Source: Candidatus Shapirobacteria bacterium
GTDB taxonomy: Bacteria > Patescibacteriota > Microgenomatia > UBA12405
NCBI GenBank assembly: GCA_041665485.1
Contig: JBAYIT010000001.1
Coordinates: forward strand, 73,884-137,883
Reading direction: 5' to 3'
DNA: 64,000 nucleotides
The notes below the pieces were generated by a model. It saw only the letters and a list, made by a program, of their open reading frames with translations. It was not told where the DNA came from and made no database searches. Positions 3,121 to 63,696 of the stretch are shown here, piece after piece (position 1 is the stretch's first letter; each line of letters opens with the position of its first letter). Both the position numbers and the translations under genes were made by a program.

Positions 3121-4224
3121 ATGTCTAGAACAAGAAGCCCTGAAACTCGCGAACTACCCCAAGAACCCCGTAGGACTAGACACGCCAGAATTGTTCCTAG
3201 TGTGGCCCTTGAACCTAGATTTTCGGAAGCAAATGGCGACGACGCCCCAATACTTTGGCAACCCGGCACCCCCATGGATGAAACTTTCTTAAGAGCGGCA
3301 GGAGTAATACCTAGTGAGGCAATTGGCCAAAATTTTCTCGTTGACCCTGAGCTTGTTGCCCTTGTCGCTTCCCAAATTATTCCTAACGCTCAAGTTGTAG
3401 AAATAGGCGCCGGCCCTGCCAATATGACCGCCGTTATTGCCCCAATCGTCCAAGAGGTTGTCGGTTTGGAAATCGATCCCGCCAGTTACCGACCTATTCA
3501 TGATGCCGTCTTGCCACAATTGGGTAATGCCCGCATCCTCTATCAAGACGCACTTAGTTTTAAATTTGAAAAATGGGTTGAATCACAGAGAGATGCCATT
3601 TATCAGGTGTTTGGCAATATTCCCTTTCACATTGCCGAGCCGCTTTTGGTTAAACTGGCTCGATTAGGGGATAGGGTTGACAGGATTACTTTGTTGGTGG
3701 GCGATAATTTTGCTCAAATTATGGCGATTCGGGATCCGCAAGATATTCGCTATGGCCGAATGTCTTTTGTGGCTAGCCTTTTCCAAGTCGATACTGTCGC
3801 CCAAATTCCTCGAGAGGGATTTTGGCCGGTTCCCCGCACCGATGCCACTCTTATTAACCTTACCCCCCTAGAACACGATTTAGACGGACGAGATTTGACT
3901 TTACAACTTCGTGGGCAAATTATAAATCAACCCGATCTAACGATAATTAAAGTATTAAATGGTTTTTCGCCCCGCCAAGCATCCGGCAAAATGTCGAAGG
4001 AACAAGCCCGTCGCCGTGACCGTCGACAAACTCGAGATGAACTTCGTGGTCTAACCCGACAACTTAAGCCCCAAGACGGTTATGCTTCAGGCGATAACCA
4101 ATCCCGTGTTGGTATTAGTCTTGTTACCCGTCTAGGCCTACCCCCAGAGATACTTAGCCAGCCCTTTAGTCGCTTAAATAATCAACAAGTCAGAATTCTA
4201 GCCCAAGCTATTGAAAAGTTGTAA
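3121..4224 (+). CDS. rsmA: 16S rRNA (adenine1518/1519) dimethyltransferase RsmA/KsgA-like, with N- and C-terminal extensions
   Basis: Canonical 'GQNFLVD', 'VVEIGAGPANMT', 'GNIPFHIAEP' and 'FWPVPRTDATLINL'. Noticeably more GC-rich than the flanking genes. Confidence 0.6.
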   Translation: MSRTRSPETRELPQEPRRTRHARIVPSVALEPRFSEANGDDAPILWQPGTPMDETFLRAAGVIPSEAIGQNFLVDPELVALVASQIIPNAQVVEIGAGPANMTAVIAPIVQEVVGLEIDPASYRPIHDAVLPQLGNARILYQDALSFKFEKWVESQRDAIYQVFGNIPFHIAEPLLVKLARLGDRVDRITLLVGDNFAQIMAIRDPQDIRYGRMSFVASLFQVDTVAQIPREGFWPVPRTDATLINLTPLEHDLDGRDLTLQLRGQIINQPDLTIIKVLNGFSPRQASGKMSKEQARRRDRRQTRDELRGLTRQLKPQDGYASGDNQSRVGISLVTRLGLPPEILSQPFSRLNNQQVRILAQAIEKL

Positions 4225-4882: not shown

Positions 4883-5987
4883 GTTTTAGCAGGATCTCTT
4901 TTAGGATTAAAACCCTTTCGACCTCGAGGAAATCTGTAGCATAGAGCTGGATGATGTTTTTTTGGATGATGCTCTCGGCATTAGCAAACTCCTCTTTTAC
5001 TTTAATATGATAAAAATCGGTTAGGATCTTATTTTTACTTAAAACAGTTTCATAGTTATGTTTTTGAGCATGGAAACCACTATTAATCAAATCTTCAATC
5101 AGATCCTTGGTATTTATATCCACCGACAACTCAATCACCGGCATATGAAAAACTCTATCTGCCTCCGGGTATGCAAGCTGAAAACTTATTTGATCAGTCG
5201 TCGACGACACCTCCCGCTGGAAGTTTAAAATATTAGTCTTTATCGTCAAACGTCGATTTTTGTTATTTTTCAAATCATGTAAGGCTAGCAATAAGGCAAA
5301 TAGGTGTGGTCTAAACTTAATGCCAACATTATTAGGAATATGTTTATAGTGGTTGGTTATTAAATCACTTGGGACTCTATTAGAGTGAGAAAAAAGCAAC
5401 GCCCTGTCGCGAAATACCGGATTATCGGTAGTTAATGCGCCAAGTTCACCTCCGCTAATCAGTTTACCTAAACCAAACGAAACACAATTAATGTCAAAAA
5501 ACTCTCCTATGGGTTTACCTCTCCACCGCGATTCATGGGCATGTGACGAATCAGAAATTATAAAGATTTTATGTTTTTTCTGTAATTGAGAAATTTTATT
5601 CAAATTGGTCAAGTTTCCCCAAGGCTGTAGAACCATTATCGCCAGAGTATTGTCATTGACAAGTTTGTCACACTTATCGACATCTAAAGCATAAGTTGCC
5701 GGATCAACATCACAAAAGACTGGTTTTAATCCAAAGGCGCAAATAACACTAATACTGACATGAAATCCGTAAGTTGGAATAATCACTTCCTTTTTATCAC
5801 TTTCCAGAGAAAGACAAAAAAGGGCTAGATACAGCGCCGAAGTGCCATTACATGTCGAAACACCAAACTTGTTGCCAAATAGTTTAGCCGCCTCGTTTTC
5901 AAACTCCTCCATGTAACCACCCTTAACTGTCGATAGCCAATTATCTTTAATACAGCGATCTATCTGTTCGAGATAGCTACTTGTCAT
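4857..5987 (-). CDS. DegT/DnrJ/EryC1/StrS-family PLP-dependent sugar aminotransferase
   Basis: N-terminal 'FGVSTCNGTSALYLAL' motif typical of DegT-family aminotransferases. Size about 376 aa. Confidence 0.7.
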   Translation of the reverse strand: MTSSYLEQIDRCIKDNWLSTVKGGYMEEFENEAAKLFGNKFGVSTCNGTSALYLALFCLSLESDKKEVIIPTYGFHVSISVICAFGLKPVFCDVDPATYALDVDKCDKLVNDNTLAIMVLQPWGNLTNLNKISQLQKKHKIFIISDSSHAHESRWRGKPIGEFFDINCVSFGLGKLISGGELGALTTDNPVFRDRALLFSHSNRVPSDLITNHYKHIPNNVGIKFRPHLFALLLALHDLKNNKNRRLTIKTNILNFQREVSSTTDQISFQLAYPEADRVFHMPVIELSVDINTKDLIEDLINSGFHAQKHNYETVLSKNKILTDFYHIKVKEEFANAESIIQKNIIQLYATDFLEVERVLILKEILLKHAGLSKTV

Positions 5988-35010: not shown

Positions 35011-35409
35011 ATGAATGAAACATATAATTGGTATCAGCAGTTAATTAAACCAAGTTGGGCACCGCCAAGCTGGCTGTTTGGGCCGGTGTGGTCGGTGCTT
35101 TATTTAATTATTGCCATTTCTTTTGGCTATGTTTTTTATTTGGCAATTAAGGGAAGAATTTCGTGGGTAATGGCCTTACCTTTTATTTTGAATCTGGTTT
35201 TTAATTTGATTTTTACCCCAATTCAATTTGGGTTGAGAAATAATTTATTAGCGGCAGTTGATATCTTGGCGGTGTTAGTGACAATGATTTGGAGTTTTGT
35301 AGCGATTTTGCCGGTGGCGAGGTGGGTAGTAATAGCCAACGTCCCCTATCTTATTTGGGTGTCGTTTGCGACAGTGTTGCAATTTACGATTACATATTTA
35401 AACAAATAA
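35011..35409 (+). CDS. TspO/MBR family protein
   Basis: 'WYQQLIKPSWAPPSWLFGPVWSVLY' signature and five TM segments. Confidence 0.75.
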   Translation: MNETYNWYQQLIKPSWAPPSWLFGPVWSVLYLIIAISFGYVFYLAIKGRISWVMALPFILNLVFNLIFTPIQFGLRNNLLAAVDILAVLVTMIWSFVAILPVARWVVIANVPYLIWVSFATVLQFTITYLNK

Positions 35410-39043: not shown

Positions 39044-40498
39044 ATGATAAGAGTTAGCAATCTAAAATTTAGATATGGAGGTGAGCCGGTATTTGACGGA
39101 GTTAGTTTTTTTGTAAATAAAGGAGAAAAAGTAGGTTTGGTGGGGCAAAATGGGAGCGGAAAATCGACCTTGTTTCGAATACTGGCGGGAATTGAAGCCC
39201 AGGACGAGGGGCGAATTGAAATGGGAGGAAAAATTTGGTTGGTGCCCCAAGAGATCAGACAAGATATGTTGATTGACGGAGCGGAAAGTATTAGCGACTA
39301 TCTTGATTTGGAAAAACAACATCCGGAATTTGAGTTGAAGCAAATGCTTGCCGGCATGGAAATGAAAAGGGTGAAACTAACAGATTTGCCAATCAATTTA
39401 AGTGGCGGACAAAAAACGAAGTTAGCCATAATTAAAGCATTGTTGGCCCAGCCGGAGATATTGTTGCTTGATGAACCGACGAATTTTTTGGATGTAAATG
39501 GTAAAAGGTGGATGTTTGAAACACTGGCAAAATACCCCAAAACACTGTTGGTCGTTTCCCACGATCTGCCTCTACTCAATAAAACAATTACTAAGGTGCT
39601 ATATATAAACCCCCAGTTTAGAAAGATTGACGAATATGTTGGCAACTATGATAAATTTCTAAAACAAAAGGCGGAAAAAGAAGCGCTTATAAAGAGGCAA
39701 ATTGAAACAGAGAAAAAACATATCGCTCAAATGAAGGAGAGTTTGGTGAAATCGGCCGGAGTGAAATCAAGCAAGGGGGTAAGACAAAGAATGAATGTAA
39801 AAAGGAGATTAGAAAAAATGGAGGAGATGTTACCGCCGATGCCGGCTGAAGCCAAAAAAATAAAAGTGGTGTTGCCGGAACCAATTTGGGTGGGCGAATT
39901 ACCGATATTTTGTGAAAATATAAGTAAAAGTTTTGGTGAAAATAAGGTGCTGTCGGGAGTTAACTTAACCATTAGGCGGGGCGAAAGAGTGGTGTTTCTA
40001 GGACCAAACGGGGCGGGAAAAAGCACGTTAATTAAAATACTTTTAGGAGTATATGAAGCGGACAGTGGCCGGGTGGTGAGGGACGCAAAATTGAAAACTG
40101 GCTATTACACCCAAGAACTGGAAAATTTTGATTATGGAATGAAGGTTTTAGAAACGGTAAGAATAAAAACTAGTAAATCAGAGGCGATGATTCGGCCGAT
40201 TTTAGCAAAATTTTTATTTCCCTTTGACAAACTCGAACAAAAAGTGGGGACGCTATCGGGAGGAGAAAAGACGAGACTGTCGATTGCTTGTCTGCTGTTA
40301 TCTGATTTTAATTTGTTGGTATTGGATGAACCAACAACTTACCTTGATGTGCTGTCGCAAAGACTAATCCTTGAAGGCTTAAAAGAATACAAAGGGGCGA
40401 TGATTTTGGTGTCGCACAACCCGGAATTTGTTGACGAAATCGCCCCACGGCAAAGACTGTATCTGCCGGAAAATAGGATTGAGGTAACTACCACTTGA
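39044..40498 (+). CDS. ABC-F family ATPase (two ABC domains, no TM domain)
   Basis: Walker A 'GQNGSGKST' and 'GPNGAGKST'. Signatures 'LSGGQKTKLAI' and 'LSGGEKTRLSI'. A charged inter-domain linker is present. Confidence 0.8.
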   Translation: MIRVSNLKFRYGGEPVFDGVSFFVNKGEKVGLVGQNGSGKSTLFRILAGIEAQDEGRIEMGGKIWLVPQEIRQDMLIDGAESISDYLDLEKQHPEFELKQMLAGMEMKRVKLTDLPINLSGGQKTKLAIIKALLAQPEILLLDEPTNFLDVNGKRWMFETLAKYPKTLLVVSHDLPLLNKTITKVLYINPQFRKIDEYVGNYDKFLKQKAEKEALIKRQIETEKKHIAQMKESLVKSAGVKSSKGVRQRMNVKRRLEKMEEMLPPMPAEAKKIKVVLPEPIWVGELPIFCENISKSFGENKVLSGVNLTIRRGERVVFLGPNGAGKSTLIKILLGVYEADSGRVVRDAKLKTGYYTQELENFDYGMKVLETVRIKTSKSEAMIRPILAKFLFPFDKLEQKVGTLSGGEKTRLSIACLLLSDFNLLVLDEPTTYLDVLSQRLILEGLKEYKGAMILVSHNPEFVDEIAPRQRLYLPENRIEVTTT

Positions 40499-40529
40499 CA
40501 CACCCTAGGGGGGTGTGTAGAATGGAGGA
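40494..40529 (+). promoter_or_regulatory. promoter TTGACA-17-TAGAAT with embedded GC palindrome (candidate CsoR-family operator)
   Basis: Within 'cTTGACAcaccctaggggggtgtgTAGAATgg', the spacer holds ACACCC-TAGG-GGGTGT. It lies directly upstream of the CsoR-like gene. Confidence 0.5.
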
Positions 40530-40766
40530 GTGAAGACGATAAGTCAGAGGCTAAATAATATTGCCGGACAAATTGAAGGGGTAAAAAAACTGATTGACAA
40601 AAAAGAAGATTGTCTGTCGGTTTTAACCCAATTAAAGGCAGTTAAGTCGGCAGTTTCTAGCGTAATTGGCCAAGTGGTTGAAGAACAGTTTGACAACTGC
40701 TTAAATGATTTGTCGCCAAAACAAAAAAAATTATTGATTGAAATTAAAAAATATGCAACTAATTAA
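40530..40766 (+). CDS. CsoR/RcnR/FrmR-family metal- or persulfide-sensing repressor (CstR-like Cys...Cys pattern)
   Basis: Family fold 'RLNNIAGQIEGVKKLIDKKEDCLSVLTQLKAVKSA'. Cys is at the x and z positions, with Gln where CsoR has His. Confidence 0.65.
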   Translation: MKTISQRLNNIAGQIEGVKKLIDKKEDCLSVLTQLKAVKSAVSSVIGQVVEEQFDNCLNDLSPKQKKLLIEIKKYATN

Positions 40767-41079
40767 TGTTGATAACCAAAATTTTGAGGCGGAAGTGCTA
40801 AAGTCCCCTATCCCGGTGTTAGTAGATTTCTGGGCGCCGTGGTGTGGGCCGTGCATGATGATGGGGCCGGTTTTAGAAGAAATTGCTAAGGAAATGGATG
40901 GCAAATTAAAAATTGCCAAATTAAATACTGATTTGGCAGAGAACCAACAGCTGGCAATTCAATACCAAATTCAAAGTATTCCCAACATGAAACTGTTTAA
41001 GGGCGGAGTGGTGGTAAAAGAAGTCATCGGCTTTAAACCAAAAGAGGCCCTGATGGCAGAAGTTAAAGAATTTATTTAA
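40753..41079 (+). CDS. trxA: thioredoxin
   Basis: Active site 'WAPWCGPC'. Overlaps the repressor gene. The start was chosen at the internal ATG ('MQLINVDNQNF'). Confidence 0.85.
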   Translation: MQLINVDNQNFEAEVLKSPIPVLVDFWAPWCGPCMMMGPVLEEIAKEMDGKLKIAKLNTDLAENQQLAIQYQIQSIPNMKLFKGGVVVKEVIGFKPKEALMAEVKEFI

Positions 41080-41086
41080 TAAAAAA

Positions 41087-41581
41087 TTGAGTGAATACCT
41101 TGGGCTGACTGATGGAGTATTATTCGAAATAGATAATAGTGCCTATAGGCCACTTCGTGTGATTGGAGGTGAAAAATTTGATTTTTCCCCAAAAACACCA
41201 CCTGAAAAATCAAGGGGGATGGCTTTGGTGGTCGGATTAGAGGAATTACCACCACCAAGCGACAGCGAAGGAGATAGGGTTGATTTGAGACTATCAGCCC
41301 CAACAAGTTGGTATAATGTTTTTTTGGAAGAGTTTGAAAAACGATTGAGAACCTATGTGCCAAGATCGGCAAAGATTAATGGGGTGTGGATTTTGAGATC
41401 AAGCCAACAAATTAGCGAAGGTGGTTATTGGCCGATTTGGTTTGATCATAGACTAACTGGACCCGGGGAAATGATAACCTTGGGAATTCCCAAGGGCAGG
41501 AATATATTTCCAACAACCGAAGACCTAATTAGATCTTCATTATTTGCGGTGGCAAGGGCCTCAGTAAACGCAGTACAATGA
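41087..41581 (+). CDS. hypothetical protein
   Basis: ORF with no recognisable motif. Confidence 0.35.
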   Translation: MSEYLGLTDGVLFEIDNSAYRPLRVIGGEKFDFSPKTPPEKSRGMALVVGLEELPPPSDSEGDRVDLRLSAPTSWYNVFLEEFEKRLRTYVPRSAKINGVWILRSSQQISEGGYWPIWFDHRLTGPGEMITLGIPKGRNIFPTTEDLIRSSLFAVARASVNAVQ

Positions 41582-41608: not shown

Positions 41609-42760
41609 ATGGATTACAACCAAGCGTCGCTTGATAAGCATAAGCAATTTAGGGGGAAGATTGAAATTAGGTCGAAGTTTGGGGAAGTTAAAACGAGGGA
41701 TGATTTGAGCACGGCCTATACTCCGGGGGTGGCGGCGGTGTCAAAACTTCTGGCAGAGAAACCGGAAGAGGCAAAAAACTATTCGATTAAGGGTAATACT
41801 ATCGCTGTGGTATCGGACGGATCAGCAGTGCTGGGGTTGGGAAACATTGGGCCACTGGGAGCATTGCCAGTAATGGAAGGAAAAGCATTGCTGTTTAAGG
41901 AATTTGGCGGGGTGGATGCTTACCCGATTGTGTTGTCGACCCAAGAAACGGAAGAAATCATTAAAACGGTGGTGGCGATTGCCCCAACATTTGGAGGAAT
42001 AAACCTGGAAGATATAAGTGCGCCGAGGTGTTTTGAAATTGAAAAAAGATTACAGGAACAACTTGATATCCCGGTATTCCACGATGATCAACATGGGACG
42101 GCGATAGTAGTGCTGGCAGGGCTAATAAACAGTTTTAAATTAACGGATAGATCTAAAGAAGCAGTAAAAGTGGTAGTAAGTGGGGCTGGAGCGGCCGGAG
42201 TGGCAGTAACAAAATTACTGCTGGCTTTTGGAATTAAAAATGTAATCATGATTGATTCCGTAGGGATAATTTCTAAAGACAGGGCGGATTTAAATTGGAT
42301 TAAAAAAGAAATGGTGGAAGTGACTAACCCGGAAAACAAGCACGGGGGATTGGCGGAGGCAATAATTGGTGCTGATGTGTTTGTTGGAGTAAGTGCCCCG
42401 GGAATATTGACCGGTGAGATGGTGAAAAGTATGGCGGAAAGGTCGATTGTGATGGCCATGGCTAATCCGGTGCCGGAAATTATGCCTGAGGTAGCGTTGA
42501 CGGCCGGAGCTTATATAGTAGGAACCGGTAGAAGCGATTACCCTAATCAAATAAATAATGTGTTGGCATTTCCGGGAATTTTTAGAGGGTTGCTGGATTC
42601 GGGGGTGAAAAGGGTGAACGATGAAATAAAATTGGCGGCAGCAGAGGCGATTGCAACATGTGTTAATGAAGCGGACTTGGGGCCAGAAATGATTATCCCC
42701 TCACCTTTTAATAAAGAGGTGGCCCTAAAAGTGGCTCAAAGTGTGAGAAAATTGGGATAA
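41609..42760 (+). CDS. NAD(P)-dependent malic enzyme (short form)
   Basis: 'AYTPGVA', '[16 protein letters not shown]' and 'SGAGAAGVA' malic-enzyme motifs. Confidence 0.8.
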
Positions 42761-43977
42761 TGAAAAGATGGATAATTGTTGTTGGCTTGAGTGTTTTGTA
42801 TTTGGGGGTAAGGCTGTGGCATTTTGAAGAAGCGATGACGTTTCACTTGGACCAAGGATTGCACTTGCTAGAGGCAAAGGATATGGTCGACTCGGGGAAA
42901 ATTAGATTAATTGGGCCAATGGTGTCTTCAAAAACGTTTTTGGATCGTGGATTTTTTATCGGACCGCAATATTATTATGTCTTGGCAGTTTTGGGAATAT
43001 TAACCAGTTGGAACGCATTGGCGATAACAATAATTTTACTGGTAGTTGAATTTGGAGCAGTGTTGTTATTGATTAGGTGGATAAAGAGGAAATTTTCATT
43101 TGAAATAGCAATGATAGTAATGGCGTTAGTTACCCTGTCGCCTTATTTAATAATTCATAGCCGTTTTATTTGGAACCCGCATTTTTTGTGGCCACTGGGA
43201 ACAGTTGGATTAATAACAGCAGAAAAGGCAATTAAAAATAAAAAATGGTGGGTGGTTTTGGGAATTTTGTGGGGAGTGGCGTTCGGTTTTCATTACAGTG
43301 CCGTATTGTGGATGTTTTGGGTGGCGATATTTTGGTGGAAGCAAAAAAACAGAAAGTTAACCGATTGGTTAATAATGGGAGTGGGGGTGGGGTTAGGCAA
43401 TCTCCCCTATTGGCTATTTGAATTGCGACATAGTCTTTATAATTTAAAAACTTTGGGGTGGGTAATCAGTAACAGTAATGGCGGTTTTAGACTTGAGCCG
43501 CATTATGTTATTTACCCTCTTTTACCCCTTTTTGTTTATTTATTAATTGAATGGCTTAAAATAAAACCCAACAAAGTATTAATAATAGTGGTGGGACTAA
43601 TGTTAGTAATTGGACAGAGTTTAATTTTTAGGGACAGATTGCCACTTGGGCACCCACCGGGGTGGAATCTTCTAATAGAAAGATTGGTGGTGAATAAAAT
43701 TTTGGACAAGGGGTGTCCAAAAAACTACAATGTGGCTAGCACGGTTTCGGGGGATACCAGGGCTTATGATTTGAGGTTTTTATTGACGGCCAGGGGTTGC
43801 CCACCAATGGGAGTAACCGAATACCCTAGAGCAGAAAAATTATTTTTAGTGGCGCCGCCGACTAGGCCGCCAGAAAACGAGGAGGTGTGGGAGGTGAACA
43901 GCTTGGGTAAAATTAAAGTTGTAGAAAGGTTAGTAATTAATGATAAAGTGGTGTTTTATGAACTGGAAAAAAATTAA
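42760..43977 (+). CDS. polytopic membrane protein, GT39/GT83-like (tentative)
   Basis: About 11 TM segments. Architecture is similar to the neighbouring PMT/ArnT-like proteins. Confidence 0.35.
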   Translation: MKRWIIVVGLSVLYLGVRLWHFEEAMTFHLDQGLHLLEAKDMVDSGKIRLIGPMVSSKTFLDRGFFIGPQYYYVLAVLGILTSWNALAITIILLVVEFGAVLLLIRWIKRKFSFEIAMIVMALVTLSPYLIIHSRFIWNPHFLWPLGTVGLITAEKAIKNKKWWVVLGILWGVAFGFHYSAVLWMFWVAIFWWKQKNRKLTDWLIMGVGVGLGNLPYWLFELRHSLYNLKTLGWVISNSNGGFRLEPHYVIYPLLPLFVYLLIEWLKIKPNKVLIIVVGLMLVIGQSLIFRDRLPLGHPPGWNLLIERLVVNKILDKGCPKNYNVASTVSGDTRAYDLRFLLTARGCPPMGVTEYPRAEKLFLVAPPTRPPENEEVWEVNSLGKIKVVERLVINDKVVFYELEKN

Positions 43978-51074: not shown

Positions 51075-51584
51075 GGTTAGCAAAAGAACAAGACTGACGG
51101 GGAAAACGACTTTGGCATAGGGAAAAGGAGCGTAGCCTAGCTTCTTTTTAGTGTTGAGATAGGTGATGTTGCCAATAAGCATGCCTAGGAAACCCAGGAC
51201 TTGGCCGAAAATAATTTTGTCAATGCCAAGCAGTTTATTAGCGGAGTGGCCAGTTTGGCCGGTGGTAATAAAATAAGCAAGGGTGGTTAGAAGTAAGATT
51301 AGAGAAAGAAATATGGGTTTGGAAAAAATTTCCAATTTCCAATTTCCAATTTCTAATTTATTCAGTTTGGGAGCCAGCCAGAAGGCGAGGGCGGTGTTGA
51401 GGGCGGAGATCCAGATACTAACTAGAAGATCGTCAATGCCGAGTTTTTTGGCAATTAACATTCCCCCACCGACAGTAACGATACATACGGGGCACTGCGC
51501 CCCTACGGGGGGCGCAAGAAATAAGAAATAAGAAATAAGAAATAAGAATGAAAACAAAAATATCATAGAGTTATTGTAATACAT
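51045..51584 (-). CDS. hypothetical membrane protein (start uncertain)
   Basis: Several TM segments. The N-terminal 50 codons run through simple repeats and GC hairpins, so the real start may be an internal Met. Confidence 0.35.
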   Translation of the reverse strand: MYYNNSMIFLFSFLFLISYFLFLAPPVGAQCPVCIVTVGGGMLIAKKLGIDDLLVSIWISALNTALAFWLAPKLNKLEIGNWKLEIFSKPIFLSLILLLTTLAYFITTGQTGHSANKLLGIDKIIFGQVLGFLGMLIGNITYLNTKKKLGYAPFPYAKVVFPVSLVLLLTLAFKFAFNL

Positions 51585-62606: not shown

Positions 62607-62685
62607 TGATTTAGTATATAAGAAACAAGGAACTTGGTACTAGGAGCTAGGGACAAGAAGTAAGAAATAAGATAAAATACAGCCT

Positions 62686-63696
62686 ATGCAGGATAATGTT
62701 TACGATACGATCATTGTCGGATCAGGACCGGCGGGATTAACGGCGGCGATATATAATGTCCGATCGGCACTGAAAACAATTGTGGTTGCCGGAAACCAGC
62801 CAGGGGGACAATTGACACTAACAACAACGGTGGATAATTTTCCAGGATTTCCAGAAGGGGTTGGCGGGGTTAAGTTGATGATGGATACCCAGCAACAGGT
62901 GAGGAATTTAGGAGTGACTATTCGTAACAACTCTGTTACGAAAATAACCAATAACCAAAAAACAATTTCCAAACAAGTTCCAATAACCAATTTTCCAAGT
63001 TCCAAACTATTTGAAGTTGAATTGGATAATGGGGAAAAATTGCAGGCAAGGGCGGTGATTGTGGCAACGGGAGCGAGGGCAAAGTGGCTCCAGATTCCAA
63101 AAGAAAGAGAGTTAGTTGGGAAAGGAGTATCGGGATGCGCTACTTGTGATGGGATGTTTTTTAGGGACAAAACGGTAGTGGTGGTGGGCGGTGGAGAAAC
63201 AGCGGTAGAGGACGCGGAGTTTTTAGCTAGAATGGCAAAAAAAGTTTATATAATTCACCGAAGAGATGAATTAAGAACCAGCGCCTCGGCACAAAAAAGA
63301 GTGTTTGCAAATCCAAAAATTGAAATGGTGTGGAATAGTGAAGTGGTGGAAATCAATTGTCAGTTATCAGTTACGAGTTACGAGTTAGAAAAGTTACAAA
63401 ATATAAAAATAAAGAACAACAAAACTGGGGAAGAAAAGATAATGGAAATTGAGGGATTGTTTGTGGCGATTGGGAGGCAACCGGAGACGGAGTTTGTTAA
63501 GGATTTAGTGGAATTAAGAGATGAGGGTTATGTAGTGACTGGGAAAAATCCAGAATATCCGATGATGACAACACTGGAAGGAGTTTTTGCCGCCGGTGAC
63601 TGCATGGATTCTATATACAGACAGGCGATTGTGGCGGCAGGAGCGGGGGCAAGGGCGGCACTGGATGCGGAGAGATGGCTGAAGAATGGAAGTTAG
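62686..63696 (+). CDS. trxB: thioredoxin reductase
   Basis: 'IVGSGPAGLTAAIY', redox-active 'CATCDG', 'VVGGGETAVEDA' and 'GVFAAGDCMD'. Contains two embedded heptamer arrays. Confidence 0.85.
   Translation: MQDNVYDTIIVGSGPAGLTAAIYNVRSALKTIVVAGNQPGGQLTLTTTVDNFPGFPEGVGGVKLMMDTQQQVRNLGVTIRNNSVTKITNNQKTISKQVPITNFPSSKLFEVELDNGEKLQARAVIVATGARAKWLQIPKERELVGKGVSGCATCDGMFFRDKTVVVVGGGETAVEDAEFLARMAKKVYIIHRRDELRTSASAQKRVFANPKIEMVWNSEVVEINCQLSVTSYELEKLQNIKIKNNKTGEEKIMEIEGLFVAIGRQPETEFVKDLVELRDEGYVVTGKNPEYPMMTTLEGVFAAGDCMDSIYRQAIVAAGAGARAALDAERWLKNGS

What the first reader, a model, noticed from the sequence alone, without database searches (positions are those of the whole stretch)
40494..41079. CsoR/CstR-family repressor and thioredoxin form an operon with a GC palindrome inside the promoter spacer
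The palindrome ACACCC-TAGG-GGGTGT fills the 17-nt spacer of TTGACA...TAGAAT immediately upstream of a CsoR-fold repressor gene. That gene overlaps trxA. The repressor keeps the two Cys (x and z positions) but has Gln where the Cu-ligand His of CsoR sits. This is the pattern described for persulfide-sensing CstR rather than copper-sensing CsoR. Pairing a CstR-like sensor with thioredoxin suggests a thiol or persulfide-stress circuit, not copper efflux. The -35 hexamer overlaps the stop codon of the upstream ABC-F gene.
Basis: partly seen in the sequence, partly recalled or inferred. Interest (0 to 1): 0.5.

Follow-up and report, generated by a model that had tools for sequence, protein, structure and literature searches.

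The report
Thiol-switch repressor controlling thioredoxin operon
A small two-cysteine repressor of the CsoR family sits in a two-gene operon with thioredoxin behind a promoter that carries its own binding palindrome; the unit is conserved across the tiny-genome Patescibacteria, where it probably acts as a thiol-oxidation alarm, not a copper sensor.

Summary
TTGACA-17 nt-TAGAAT (40495-40523) contains the palindrome ACACACCC/TAGGG/GGGTGTGT. It precedes a 78-aa PF02583 repressor gene (GTG 40530-40766) that overlaps trxA (40753-41079) by 14 nt. The -35 hexamer contains the TGA stop of the upstream ABC-F gene.

The repressor has exactly two Cys (C28, C57) and no histidine. Gln53 aligns without gaps to the Cu-ligand His of CsoRs and to the Asn55 "wedge" of S. 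pneumoniae CstR, its best sequence and structure match.

Among 120 homologs both Cys are invariant and the Y position is Q, K or E, never H. In 48 patescibacterial genomes and 34 metagenome loci found from the operator alone, the same promoter-operator precedes the gene. Thioredoxin nearly always follows. It is sometimes extended by glutamate dehydrogenase and thioredoxin reductase, a TsoY-family membrane protein or a YgaP-like TM protein. No sulfide-oxidation or copper genes were seen.

The start codon lies 5-8 nt after the -10 box, so the mRNA is probably leaderless, as seems usual in this genome.

Best reading: an autoregulated dithiol redox switch driving the thioredoxin system. It has a CstR-type signature but a different regulon. 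The inducer (persulfide or general thiol oxidant) is unresolved. I rate it a new variant of a known kind, of moderate interest.

The parts
40495..40500 (+). -35 hexamer TTGACA. It contains the TGA stop (40496-40498) of the upstream ABC-F gene.
   Evidence: An exact TTGACA is present in 46 of 48 orthologous loci.
40498..40518 (.). Operator palindrome ACACACCC-TAGGG-GGGTGTGT (core ACACCC-N5-GGGTGT, 40500-40516). It spans the end of the -35, the whole spacer and the first base of the -10.
   Evidence: 0.11 expected by chance in the window. The consensus ACACCCC-N1-5-GGGGTGT is near-invariant in 48 genomes of about 39% GC. It resembles the S. mitis cst operator ATATACCCTTATGGGGTATAT.
40518..40523 (+). 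-10 hexamer TAGAAT.
   Evidence: A -10-like box is present at the same position in orthologs.
40524..40529 (+). GGAGGA between the -10 and the start codon. It is probably not a functional Shine-Dalgarno: spacing to GTG is 0 nt, and it lies upstream of the predicted transcription start.
   Evidence: These 5-8 nt are not conserved in orthologs. SD-like motifs precede only 5 of 61 genes in the window.
40530..40766 (+). CsoR/RcnR-superfamily repressor gene, 78 aa, GTG start. Signature x-C28-Q53-C57, with no His. The mRNA is probably leaderless, starting at or next to the GTG.
   Evidence: A start codon 5-8 nt after the -10 occurs in about 41 of 48 loci.
40753..40766 (+). 14-nt overlap of the repressor's 3' end with the trxA start (AAAAAATATG...TAA). 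There is no SD, so translational coupling is likely.
   Evidence: A 17-nt overlap with the same AAAAAATATG context is seen in 21 orthologous loci.
40753..41079 (+). Thioredoxin gene trxA, 108 aa, WCGPC active site.
   Evidence: TIGR01068, 115.7 bits against a cutoff of 96.8. It is conserved directly downstream of the repressor gene.
41087..41581 (+). 164-aa ORF of unknown function, on the same strand with no terminator found before it. Its membership in the operon is uncertain.
   Evidence: no Pfam hit; no terminator found between 41079 and 41478; not conserved in other loci.
41609..42760 (+). Malic enzyme, which generates NAD(P)H. It may be co-transcribed; its membership is uncertain.
   Evidence: The same enzyme lies 8 nt after trx in L007. 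It is analogous to the gdh that follows trx in other clades.
62686..63696 (+). Thioredoxin reductase (CATCDG motif). It is unlinked and has no operator upstream. It is listed as the partner enzyme, not as part of the operon.

Best explanation
The locus is an autoregulated, probably leaderless, two-gene operon found across Patescibacteria. It encodes a CsoR-superfamily repressor and thioredoxin.

In the reduced (dithiol) state, the repressor tetramer binds the C-tract/G-tract palindrome. That site overlaps the -35 box and the spacer of its own sigma-70-type promoter, so binding blocks RNA polymerase.

Oxidation of the only two cysteines would link them across protomers. Cys28 lies at the start of helix 2 and Cys57' at its end. 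The oxidant could be a persulfide or polysulfide, peroxide, or a disulfide-forming electrophile. The link would be a disulfide or polysulfide bridge, as in CstR. It lowers DNA affinity and derepresses the operon.

The induced thioredoxin is recycled by TrxB using NAD(P)H. In some lineages TrxB and an NAD(P)H-producing dehydrogenase lie in the same operon. Thioredoxin restores protein thiols and probably re-reduces the repressor, which closes a negative feedback loop.

Shown: the anatomy, the family, the residue signature, and the conservation of operator, geometry and gene pairing.
Inferred: repression, the cysteine switch, the identity of the oxidant, and reduction of the repressor by thioredoxin.
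For: - Family and fold: PF02583 E=5.5e-18. The best PDB sequence hit is SpCstR 7MQ1, both for the single sequence and for the profile. The AF2 model has pLDDT 92 and three helices, with the Cys at both ends of helix 2. The top 18 Foldseek hits are all CsoR family, with SpCstR first.
- Signature: C28 and C57 are present in 120/120 homologs. Y is Q (86), K (30) or E (4), never H. 105 of 120 have no His at all, and 117 of 120 have exactly two Cys. Asp precedes Cys-X, as in SpCstR, instead of the Tyr of Cu sensors.
- Operator: it occurs at one copy per locus, is near-invariant, and is always fused to TTGACA in 48 genomes. It resembles the cst operator.
- Independent operator-first scan of metagenomes: 34 low-GC loci carry the repressor gene immediately downstream. 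It is followed by trx; by trx-gdh; by trx-gdh-trxB; by a TsoY-family membrane protein with an invariant Cys; or by a YgaP-like TM protein.
- Flanking genes differ between genomes, so the conserved unit is promoter-repressor-trx.
- Mechanistic precedent: CstR forms di-, tri- and tetrasulfide links between the equivalent Cys and then leaves the DNA. It also reacts with H2O2 in vitro.
- Functional precedent: the ArsR-type repressor RexT senses H2O2 and upregulates thioredoxin.
Against: - There is no experimental or transcript evidence. The promoter, the transcription start, repression and the redox switch are all inferred.
- Identity to SpCstR is only about 30%.
- The regulon lacks the rhodanese, persulfide dioxygenase, SQR and CoA-persulfide reductase genes that support CstR assignments. 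Inducer specificity is therefore open.
- The R28-D32 ion pair described around the attacking Cys of SpCstR has no obvious conserved equivalent here.
- A few homologs have lost or shifted the second Cys (L023, L025, L033).
- trxB in the window has no operator, so the 'thioredoxin system regulon' is only partial in this genome.
Confidence: 0.75

Rival explanations
1. It is a true CstR orthologue: a persulfide- or polysulfide-specific sensor. The induced thioredoxin acts mainly as a depersulfidase. The TsoY/SLAC1-fold transporter seen in some operons would export a sulfur oxyanion. This is a sub-case of the best explanation with a narrower inducer.
For: - The best sequence and structure match is SpCstR.
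- The x-C-x-C signature has an amide 'wedge' residue (Gln, against Asn55 in SpCstR) and Asp before Cys-X.
- Recurrent partners have sulfur- or selenium-associated relatives. TsoY belongs to a family defined next to a rhodanese/DsbD selenoprotein operon, and the YgaP-like TM domain comes from a membrane rhodanese.
- These organisms come from groundwater and sediment samples, where sulfide is plausible. That last point is an inference.
Against: - No rhodanese, persulfide dioxygenase, SQR or CoA-persulfide reductase was seen next to the gene in the loci whose flanks were examined, out of about 80 loci. Such neighbourhoods are what confirmed the CstR clusters.
- The constant partner is generic thioredoxin, extended by TrxB and an NAD(P)H source.
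- CstRs themselves react readily with H2O2 in vitro, so the signature does not imply specificity.
- The Y residue varies (Q, K, E), even between two paralogs in one genome.
Confidence: 0.3
2. It is a Cu(I)-sensing CsoR, or another metal sensor of the RcnR/InrS type, that happens to sit next to trxA.
For: - Public annotation calls these proteins 'metal-sensitive transcriptional regulator' or 'CsoR family'.
- The weak best NCBIfam hit is RicR, at 46.5 bits against a cutoff of 175.
- Two Cys can bind Cu(I); CstR binds Cu(I) too.
Against: - There is no His at Y in any of 120 homologs, and no His anywhere in the window protein (the sequence itself).
- Without that His, Cu(I) does not drive CstR off DNA.
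- The second-shell Tyr before Cys-X is replaced by Asp.
- The N-terminus is M-K-T/S, so it lacks the His3 of RcnR and InrS.
- There is no P-type ATPase (DKTGT) or CopZ motif in the 64-kb window, and no copA or copZ in the related loci examined.
- Genuine C-H-C CsoRs recovered in the same scan (L045-L059) look different: 'RYC...H...C' with TACCCC..GGGGTA operators.
Confidence: 0.03
3. The repressor senses reactive electrophiles (aldehydes, quinones) by cysteine alkylation, in the manner of FrmR or YodB, rather than by oxidation.
For: - FrmR is a member of the same fold and uses the equivalent Cys.
- Thioredoxin induction is a common part of electrophile responses. This rests on general knowledge, not on a test here.
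Against: - FrmR chemistry needs Pro2 together with the Cys (P-C-H-x). Here residue 2 is an invariant Lys.
- Two invariant Cys, placed as in CstR, argue for a dithiol/disulfide switch.
- No aldehyde dehydrogenase or quinone reductase is linked to the gene.
Confidence: 0.07
4. The GC palindrome is not an operator. It is a terminator or attenuator hairpin for the upstream ABC-F gene, or a chance feature, and the TTGACA/TAGAAT pair is a chance match.
For: - It lies immediately after the ABC-F stop codon.
- A GC-rich hairpin of 6-8 bp could form in read-through RNA.
Against: - No T-run follows it, and it was not called as a terminator.
- The same palindrome, fused to TTGACA, is kept in 48 genomes whatever gene lies upstream, including upstream genes on the opposite strand.
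- Synteny with ABC-F is seen only in L012 and the window.
- Searching metagenomes with the motif alone recovers the repressor gene directly downstream in 34 low-GC loci.
- The chance expectation is 0.11 per window.
Confidence: 0.02

Closest known systems
CstR (CsoR-like sulfurtransferase repressor) of S. aureus, E. faecalis, S. mitis and S. pneumoniae (PDB 7MQ1-3; Fakhoury et al. 2021, PMC8643695)
   Same: - Same PF02583 three-helix fold, and the best sequence and structural match.
- Same x-C-x-C signature, with a non-liganding polar residue (Gln here, Asn55 there) replacing the Cu-ligand His.
- Asp before the first Cys.
- A GC-core palindromic operator of the same design: ACACCC-N5-GGGTGT here, against ATACCC-TTAT-GGGGTAT.
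- A presumed inter-protomer Cys-Cys crosslink as the switch.
   Different: - About 30% identity, in a separate lineage-specific clade (Patescibacteria) of 76-81 aa.
- Operator flanks are CAC/GTG instead of TAC/GTA, and the operator is fused to the -35 box.
- The regulon is thioredoxin, with or without TrxB, GDH or malic enzyme, TsoY-family and YgaP-TM proteins. It is not rhodanese, persulfide dioxygenase, SQR, CoAPR or TauE.
- The gene is autoregulated as the first gene of a leaderless operon.
- The Y residue varies (Q, K, E).
- Persulfide sensing is untested.
Cu(I)-sensing CsoR (M. tuberculosis, B. subtilis, S. lividans, G. thermodenitrificans)
   Same: Superfamily, tetramer-type fold, the position of the two Cys, and a C/G-tract palindromic operator in the promoter of its own operon.
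   Different: No His at Y, no Tyr or Glu second shell, and no copZA partner. It cannot be filed as a copper sensor.
RexT-TrxA2 of Nostoc/Anabaena PCC 7120 (ArsR-SmtB family; PMC8960804)
   Same: The same logic: a cysteine-based repressor whose oxidation derepresses a thioredoxin gene to restore redox balance.
   Different: An unrelated fold (winged-helix ArsR) and a different operator. RexT is reported to sense H2O2. The gene arrangement is not a leaderless bicistron.
RsrA-SigR-TrxBA (Streptomyces), OxyR-GrxA (E. coli) and Spx-trxA/trxB (Bacillus). These comparisons rest on general knowledge; no paper was checked here.
   Same: A thiol-switch sensor induces the reductant that resets it, giving a negative feedback homeostat for thiol oxidation.
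   Different: Different protein families and modes: an anti-sigma factor, a LysR-type activator, and an RNAP-binding factor. None is a CsoR-fold repressor, and none is co-translated with its reductant.

Membership tests
CsoR/RcnR superfamily (PF02583, DUF156) | Sequence match to the family model above the curated threshold | tested here: met
   65.6 bits against a cutoff of 22.8, E=5.5e-18, covering residues 2-69.
CsoR/RcnR superfamily (PF02583, DUF156) | All-alpha three-helix protomer with Cys-X at the N-terminal end of helix 2 | tested here: met
   The AF2 model has pLDDT 92.1 and helices 4-23, 28-58 and 63-77. The top 18 Foldseek PDB hits are all family members. The tetramer itself was not modelled.
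CsoR/RcnR superfamily (PF02583, DUF156) | Conserved DNA-contact residues: the R-x-x-K/R region in helix 1, Gln in helix 2 and a basic C-terminus | tested here: met
   R7, Q34, K36 and the C-terminal KKY are invariant or nearly so. They correspond to the residues listed for SpCstR. The equivalence is by alignment only.
CstR (persulfide-sensing CsoR-family repressors) | x-C-x-C W-X-Y-Z signature: two conserved Cys and no His at Y | tested here: met
   C28 and C57 in 120/120 homologs; Y is Q, K or E. Gap-free alignment to SpCstR places N55 opposite Q53.
CstR (persulfide-sensing CsoR-family repressors) | Genomic neighbourhood or regulon encoding sulfide or sulfite detoxification (rhodanese/CstA, persulfide dioxygenase CstB, SQR, CoA-persulfide reductase, TauE) | tested here: not met
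   The neighbours are trxA, with or without gdh, trxB, TsoY-family, YgaP-TM, malic enzyme and CoA_binding proteins. None of the defining genes was found in the loci examined. Only a TsoY/SLAC1-fold membrane protein and a YgaP-like TM peptide hint at sulfur chemistry.
CstR (persulfide-sensing CsoR-family repressors) | Reaction with per- or polysulfides forming di-, tri- or tetrasulfide crosslinks that release operator DNA, with no response to Cu(I) | not testable with these tools
   This needs purified protein, mass spectrometry and DNA-binding assays.
CstR (persulfide-sensing CsoR-family repressors) | Membership of SSN clusters 3, 4 or 10 of Fakhoury et al. | tested here: inconclusive
   The closest solved relative is the cluster-10 protein SpCstR, but at about 30% identity. 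The SSN itself and its supplements were not available.
Cu(I)-sensing CsoR | x-C-H-C ligand set, with the second-shell Tyr (before Cys-X) and Glu | tested here: not met
   Gln at Y, Asp before Cys-X, and no His in the protein.
Cu(I)-sensing CsoR | Linked copA/copZ | tested here: not met
   No DKTGT or CopZ motif in the window, and none in the related loci examined.
RcnR / InrS (Ni/Co) and FrmR (formaldehyde) | H-C-H-H or H-C-H-C ligand sets for RcnR/InrS; Pro2 plus Cys (P-C-H-x) for FrmR | tested here: not met
   The N-terminus is M-K-[S/T], with Lys2 invariant, and there is no His at W, Y or Z.
Thioredoxin (TrxA) | Trx fold with a WCGPC active site, scoring above the equivalog cutoff | tested here: met
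   PF00085 E=1.8e-29. TIGR01068 scores 115.7 against 96.8. WCGPC is at window position 40840.

The most novel reading that the evidence does not exclude
This module may be the core, and perhaps the only dedicated, thiol-oxidation stress regulon of Patescibacteria. It would be a minimal self-resetting homeostat. In it, a CsoR-fold dithiol repressor is co-translated from a leaderless mRNA with the thioredoxin that reduces it. Lineage-specific additions would be TrxB plus an NAD(P)H-generating dehydrogenase, and a Cys-containing TsoY-family membrane protein. In some genomes the unit is duplicated into Q-type and K-type paralogs that share one operator but differ in oxidant reactivity. On this reading, the CsoR superfamily would contain a general redox- or thioredoxin-state sensor class distinct from the Cu, Ni/Co, formaldehyde and persulfide classes.
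Probability: 0.3. Interest if true: 0.6.

Novelty: new variant of a known kind. Interest (0 to 1): 0.45.

Why it matters
Patescibacteria (the candidate phyla radiation) are a very large, mostly uncultured part of bacterial diversity. They have very small genomes and few recognisable regulators, and almost nothing is known about their gene regulation.

Here one regulator, its operator, its promoter geometry and its target genes can be read directly from sequence, and they are conserved across many lineages. That gives a concrete, testable model of how these organisms respond to thiol oxidation from oxygen, peroxide or reactive sulfur.

For the CsoR field, it adds a dithiol (x-C-x-C) clade whose regulon is the thioredoxin system rather than sulfide detoxification. 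This bears on the open question of how specific CstR-type sensors really are for persulfides over other oxidants.

The short operator and the 78-aa repressor could also serve as a compact redox-responsive genetic switch.

Tried and rejected
- Shifted-His idea. Rejected: the window protein has no histidine, and the alignments to CsoR and CstR are gap-free around the Y and Z positions.
- Additional operator copies, to define a wider regulon.
  - In the window, only one intragenic look-alike was found, at 43651-43664.
  - There is nothing upstream of trxB.
  - There is one copy per 8-kb locus across 337 kb of related genomes.
  - Whole genomes could not be scanned.
- GGAGGA at 40524-40529 as a Shine-Dalgarno. 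Rejected: spacing is 0 nt, it is not conserved, and SD-like motifs are rare in this genome.
- Terminator reading of the palindrome. Rejected.
- The 164-aa ORF after trx. It has no Pfam hit and no conservation in other loci, so it is left unassigned.
- Supplementary SSN/GNN tables of Fakhoury et al., which might have shown a thioredoxin-linked cluster. They are not held.
- Literature searches for a CsoR-family/thioredoxin pairing, or for this regulator in CPR. Nothing relevant was found. Absence from this library is not proof of absence.
- Operator-first metagenome scan. It also returned high-GC chance hits and two unrelated palindromic repeat families, TTGACACCCCGCGGGGTGTCAA and TTGACACCCC[A/T]GGGGTGTCAAGAATTC. 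These were set aside.
- NCBIfam gives no equivalog for the repressor. All hits are far below their cutoffs.
Full report

Yes. Window 40495-40523 reads TTGACA, then a 17-nt spacer, then TAGAAT. This is an 11/12 match to the sigma-70 consensus and the only match of that quality between 38.5 and 42 kb.

- There are six G residues, so the centre is TAGGG rather than TAGG.
- The perfect arms are 8 nt: ACACACCC (40498-40505) and GGGTGTGT (40511-40518).
- With mismatches the symmetry extends to 15 nt.
- It therefore overlaps the last three bases of the -35 and the first base of the -10.

CACCC-N1-7-GGGTG is expected 0.11 times in this 40%-GC window. It occurs at the promoter and once more inside a gene, at 43651-43664.

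The gene layout is as described.
- The ABC-F gene (39044-40498; two ABC_tran domains plus ABC_tran_Xtn) ends with TGA at 40496-40498, inside the -35 hexamer.
- The next ORF, GTG 40530 to 40766, encodes 78 aa matching PF02583 at E=5.5e-18.
- Thioredoxin follows at ATG 40753 to 41079: 108 aa, WCGPC, PF00085, and TIGR01068 above its cutoff. It overlaps the repressor gene by 14 nt.

**2. What is the protein?**

The closest solved structure, by sequence and by profile, is 7MQ1-3. The depositors' molecule name for these entries is "Copper-sensing transcriptional repressor csoR". The paper shows the protein to be Streptococcus pneumoniae CstR, a persulfide sensor.

An AlphaFold model has pLDDT 92 and the three helices of the family. 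Cys28 lies at the start of helix 2 and Cys57 at its end. The best Foldseek PDB matches are SpCstR chains, and the top 18 hits are all CsoR-family proteins.

The alignments around the sensory site have no gaps. Gln53 (Cys57 minus 4) lies opposite His of the Geobacillus and Streptomyces Cu(I) sensors, opposite His60 of FrmR, and opposite Asn55 of SpCstR.

The window protein contains no histidine at all, so the "shifted His" refutation fails.

Among the 120 best database homologs:
- Cys28 and Cys57 are present in 120/120.
- The Y position is Gln in 86, Lys in 30 and Glu in 4, never His.
- 105 proteins have no His anywhere.
- 117 have exactly two Cys.

Asp precedes the first Cys in 116 of 120, as in SpCstR ("RDC"). 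Cu sensors instead have the near-invariant Tyr that, with the His, transmits Cu binding.

Lys2 is invariant. This excludes the Pro2 of FrmR and the His3 of RcnR and InrS.

A full-library profile search shows the nearest roughly 70 representative proteins are of the same "DC...[N/Q/E/K/S]...C" type. Classical "YC...H...C" CsoRs score lower.

**3. Is the palindrome conserved, and with what?**

A scan of one genome per species returned 59 loci. Forty-eight of them (L001-L044, L046, L047, L058) are from Shapirobacteria, Woesebacteria, other Microgenomates, Falkowbacteria, Parcubacteria and Gracilibacteria, or look like them.

All 48 carry the palindrome in front of the gene:
- 46 have an exact TTGACA, and 2 have TTAACA.
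- ACACCC(C)-N1-5-(G)GGGTGT begins inside that hexamer.
- The core positions are identical in 42-48 of 48 sequences, although the genomes average 39% GC.
- The motif occurs once per 8-kb locus.

The design matches the S. mitis cst operator ATATACCCTTATGGGGTATAT. It also matches the TACCCC..GGGGTA sites in front of the genuine C-H-C CsoRs recovered from Proteobacteria in the same scan (L045-L059). The flanks differ: CAC/GTG here, TAC/GTA there.

Thioredoxin follows directly in about 43 of the 48 loci. In 21 of them the overlap is 17 nt, with the same AAAAAATATG context.

The flanking genes are otherwise different. ABC-F is upstream only in L012 and the window. The upstream gene is often on the opposite strand. 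The conserved unit is therefore promoter-operator-repressor-trx.

As an independent test I searched metagenomes with the promoter-operator motif alone.
- Of 80 loci returned, 34 low-GC loci have the repressor gene immediately downstream, again followed by trx.
- Most of the remainder are high-GC chance hits, contig-end truncations or unrelated repeats.

**4. What else travels with it?**

- In a Parcubacteria/Falkowbacteria-like subclade, the operon continues with glutamate dehydrogenase: 13 genome loci and 12 metagenome loci (10 ending at gdh, 2 continuing into trxB).
- In six loci it continues further with a thioredoxin-reductase homolog (L027, L029, L035, L039, L118, L129). This homolog scores 301 bits against TIGR01292, below the 343 cutoff. 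Genes are tightly spaced or overlapping.
- In L007, malic enzyme follows trx after 8 nt. In the window, malic enzyme (41609-42760) follows after one unassigned 164-aa ORF, with no terminator detected before it.
- Both dehydrogenases can supply reduced nicotinamide cofactor. I take their presence as a supply line for TrxB. That is an inference.
- In eight loci the partner, or an extra member, is a SLAC1/TehA-fold membrane protein. It scores above cutoff for the NCBIfam "TsoY family (seleno)protein" and has one invariant Cys in SQWGLVCPxVAY. This is the Cys counterpart of the UxxV motif listed for selenoprotein TsoY.
- In eight loci a 65-aa YgaP-like TM protein follows trx: L001, L006, L008, L010, L061, L073 and L185/L186.
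- One 281-kb contig has two copies of the module about 8 kb apart. One is Q-type and one K-type, with nearly identical operators. The K-type copy lies next to a divergent ArsR-Thioredoxin_3-ArsP cluster and near a desulfoferrodoxin.
- I saw no rhodanese, persulfide dioxygenase, SQR, CoA-persulfide reductase, TauE, CopA or CopZ.
- The window's own trxB (62686-63696) is 22 kb away and has no operator.

**5. Promoter geometry**

The start codon lies 6 nt after the -10 hexamer. In the orthologs the distance is 5-8 nt in about 41 of 48 loci. The intervening bases, GGAGGA in the window, are not conserved.

A transcript initiated the usual distance downstream of the -10 would begin at or next to the start codon. 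The mRNA would then be leaderless, and GGAGGA would not be a ribosome-binding site.

This fits the genome as a whole.
- Only 5 of 61 long ORFs in the window have an SD-like motif.
- TANNNT boxes pile up exactly 5 and 6 nt before start codons. They precede 8 and 10 genes at those offsets, against about 1.7 per offset elsewhere.

trx has no SD either and starts inside the repressor's last codons, which suggests coupled translation.

**6. Most likely mechanism**

Shown: the family, the signature, and the conservation of operator, geometry and gene pairing.

Inferred:
- The reduced tetramer binds the palindrome and occludes the -35 and spacer.
- Oxidation links Cys28 to Cys57' of the partner protomer, as in CstR, where di-, tri- and tetrasulfide links form and DNA is released.
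- The operon is then derepressed.
- Thioredoxin, recycled by TrxB and NAD(P)H, repairs thiols and probably reduces the repressor, shutting the system off again.

The logic parallels RexT, an ArsR-type H2O2-sensing repressor that upregulates thioredoxin in Nostoc. From general knowledge it also parallels RsrA-SigR-TrxBA, OxyR-GrxA and Spx.

**7. Which inducer?**

This is not resolved.
- For reactive sulfur species: the CstR-like signature and the sulfur- or selenium-flavoured partners (TsoY family, YgaP-like TM).
- For a broader thiol-oxidation signal: the constant target is generic thioredoxin with TrxB and a reductant source, and no sulfide-oxidising enzyme is linked.
- CstRs themselves react with H2O2 only 3-5-fold more slowly than with cysteine persulfide in vitro.

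My estimates are as follows.
- About 0.75 that this is a cysteine redox switch controlling thioredoxin.
- Within that, about 0.3 that it is persulfide-specific.
- About 0.1 or less in total for metal or electrophile sensing.

**8. Comparison and novelty**

It is a member of the CsoR/RcnR superfamily and carries the CstR-type x-C-x-C signature.

It fails the neighbourhood criterion used to assign CstR clusters, and it is only about 30% identical to SpCstR. I therefore do not file it as a CstR orthologue. It works like one, with a different output.

Four literature searches found no description of a CsoR-family/thioredoxin operon or of this regulator in Patescibacteria. The SSN supplements that might list such a cluster were not available.

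Public annotation is the generic "metal-sensitive transcriptional regulator" or "FrmR/CsoR family", which is misleading for this clade.

Verdict: a new variant of a known kind.

The interest is moderate. The chemistry is expected for the fold. However, this is a rare case in which a regulator, its operator, a leaderless promoter and its regulon can be defined across the candidate phyla radiation. It also offers a natural test of how oxidant specificity is set in dithiol CsoR-family sensors.

Noticed in passing
Whole window; examples at 35011, 45717, 47488, 49833(-), 52271(-), 52787(-), 60751(-) and 62686: Leaderless transcripts appear to be the common mode in this genome. Only 5 of 61 long ORFs have an SD-like motif. 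TANNNT boxes peak exactly 5-6 nt upstream of start codons, preceding 8 and 10 genes at those offsets against about 1.7 per offset elsewhere.
   Followed up: partly
window 51495-51550 and 62655-62680: A GC hairpin, CTGCGCCCC-TAC-GGGGGGCGCAAG, is followed by a tandem (AAGAAAT)x5 repeat. A similar 'gtaagaaataagataaaata' lies just upstream of the trxB start codon.
   Followed up: no
window 43651-43664: This is the only other CACCC..GGGTG palindrome in the window (CACCCACCGGGGTG). It lies inside the 405-aa membrane-protein ORF 42760-43977, where it encodes H-P-P-G-W. It is probably chance.
   Followed up: partly
L032:4244-5413, L038:4251-5369, L063, L070, L074:7329-8321, L097, L131: In some lineages a SLAC1/TehA-fold membrane protein is in the operon, once as the first gene behind the operator. 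It scores above cutoff for the NCBIfam TsoY family (seleno)protein. It has one invariant Cys, in SQWGLVCPxVAY, the Cys version of the UxxV selenoprotein motif. Its function is unknown.
   Followed up: partly
L182 (gene 5001-5240) and L185 (gene 5001-5240), both on contig ERZ27249489 k141_2222872: There are two paralogous repressor-thioredoxin modules about 8 kb apart in one genome. One has Gln and the other Lys at the Y ('wedge') position, and their operators are nearly identical. The K-type copy lies next to a divergent ArsR-Thioredoxin_3-ArsP cluster and near a desulfoferrodoxin.
   Followed up: partly
L026-L031, L035-L037, L039, L047, L058; L082, L083, L090, L101, L108, L111, L115, L118, L128, L129, L132, L136; window 41609-42760; L007:4565-5779: NAD(P)H-generating dehydrogenases are repeatedly appended to the trx gene. 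Glutamate dehydrogenase appears in one clade, sometimes followed by a thioredoxin-reductase homolog. Malic enzyme appears in the window and in L007.
   Followed up: partly
L102 (operator at 1774, - strand), L133 (2611, -), L141 (1529, +), L067 (321, -): The same TTGACACCCC..GGGGTGT promoter motif precedes other genes in low-GC contigs. In L102 and L133 it precedes an HTH_17 (excisionase-like) 79-81-aa protein. In L141 it precedes a HlyD-family adaptor, and the truncated L067 ORF looks similar by eye but has no Pfam hit. These may be further regulon members, or a different protein may be using a similar site.
   Followed up: partly
L068, L095, L096; L069, L109, L120, L121: Two unrelated perfect-palindrome repeat families occur in higher-GC metagenome contigs. 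They are TTGACACCCCGCGGGGTGTCAA followed by ATTTATTTTGGAAC, and TTGACACCCC[A/T]GGGGTGTCAAGAATTC. Each was found in several contigs.
   Followed up: no
L003, L006, L016, L018, L024, L026, L029, L036, L037, L041-L044: Several MAG records are titled 'uncultured Gammaproteobacteria', 'Melioribacter', 'Pseudomonadales' or 'Methanoperedens'. They carry the patescibacterial module, with low GC and the same promoter. The record titles are probably wrong.
   Followed up: no
L023, L025, L033 (repressor genes at 4001): A few orthologs have an 8-residue deletion around the second Cys. In L025 and L033 a Cys reappears two residues earlier (QFC). L023 has none.
   Followed up: no
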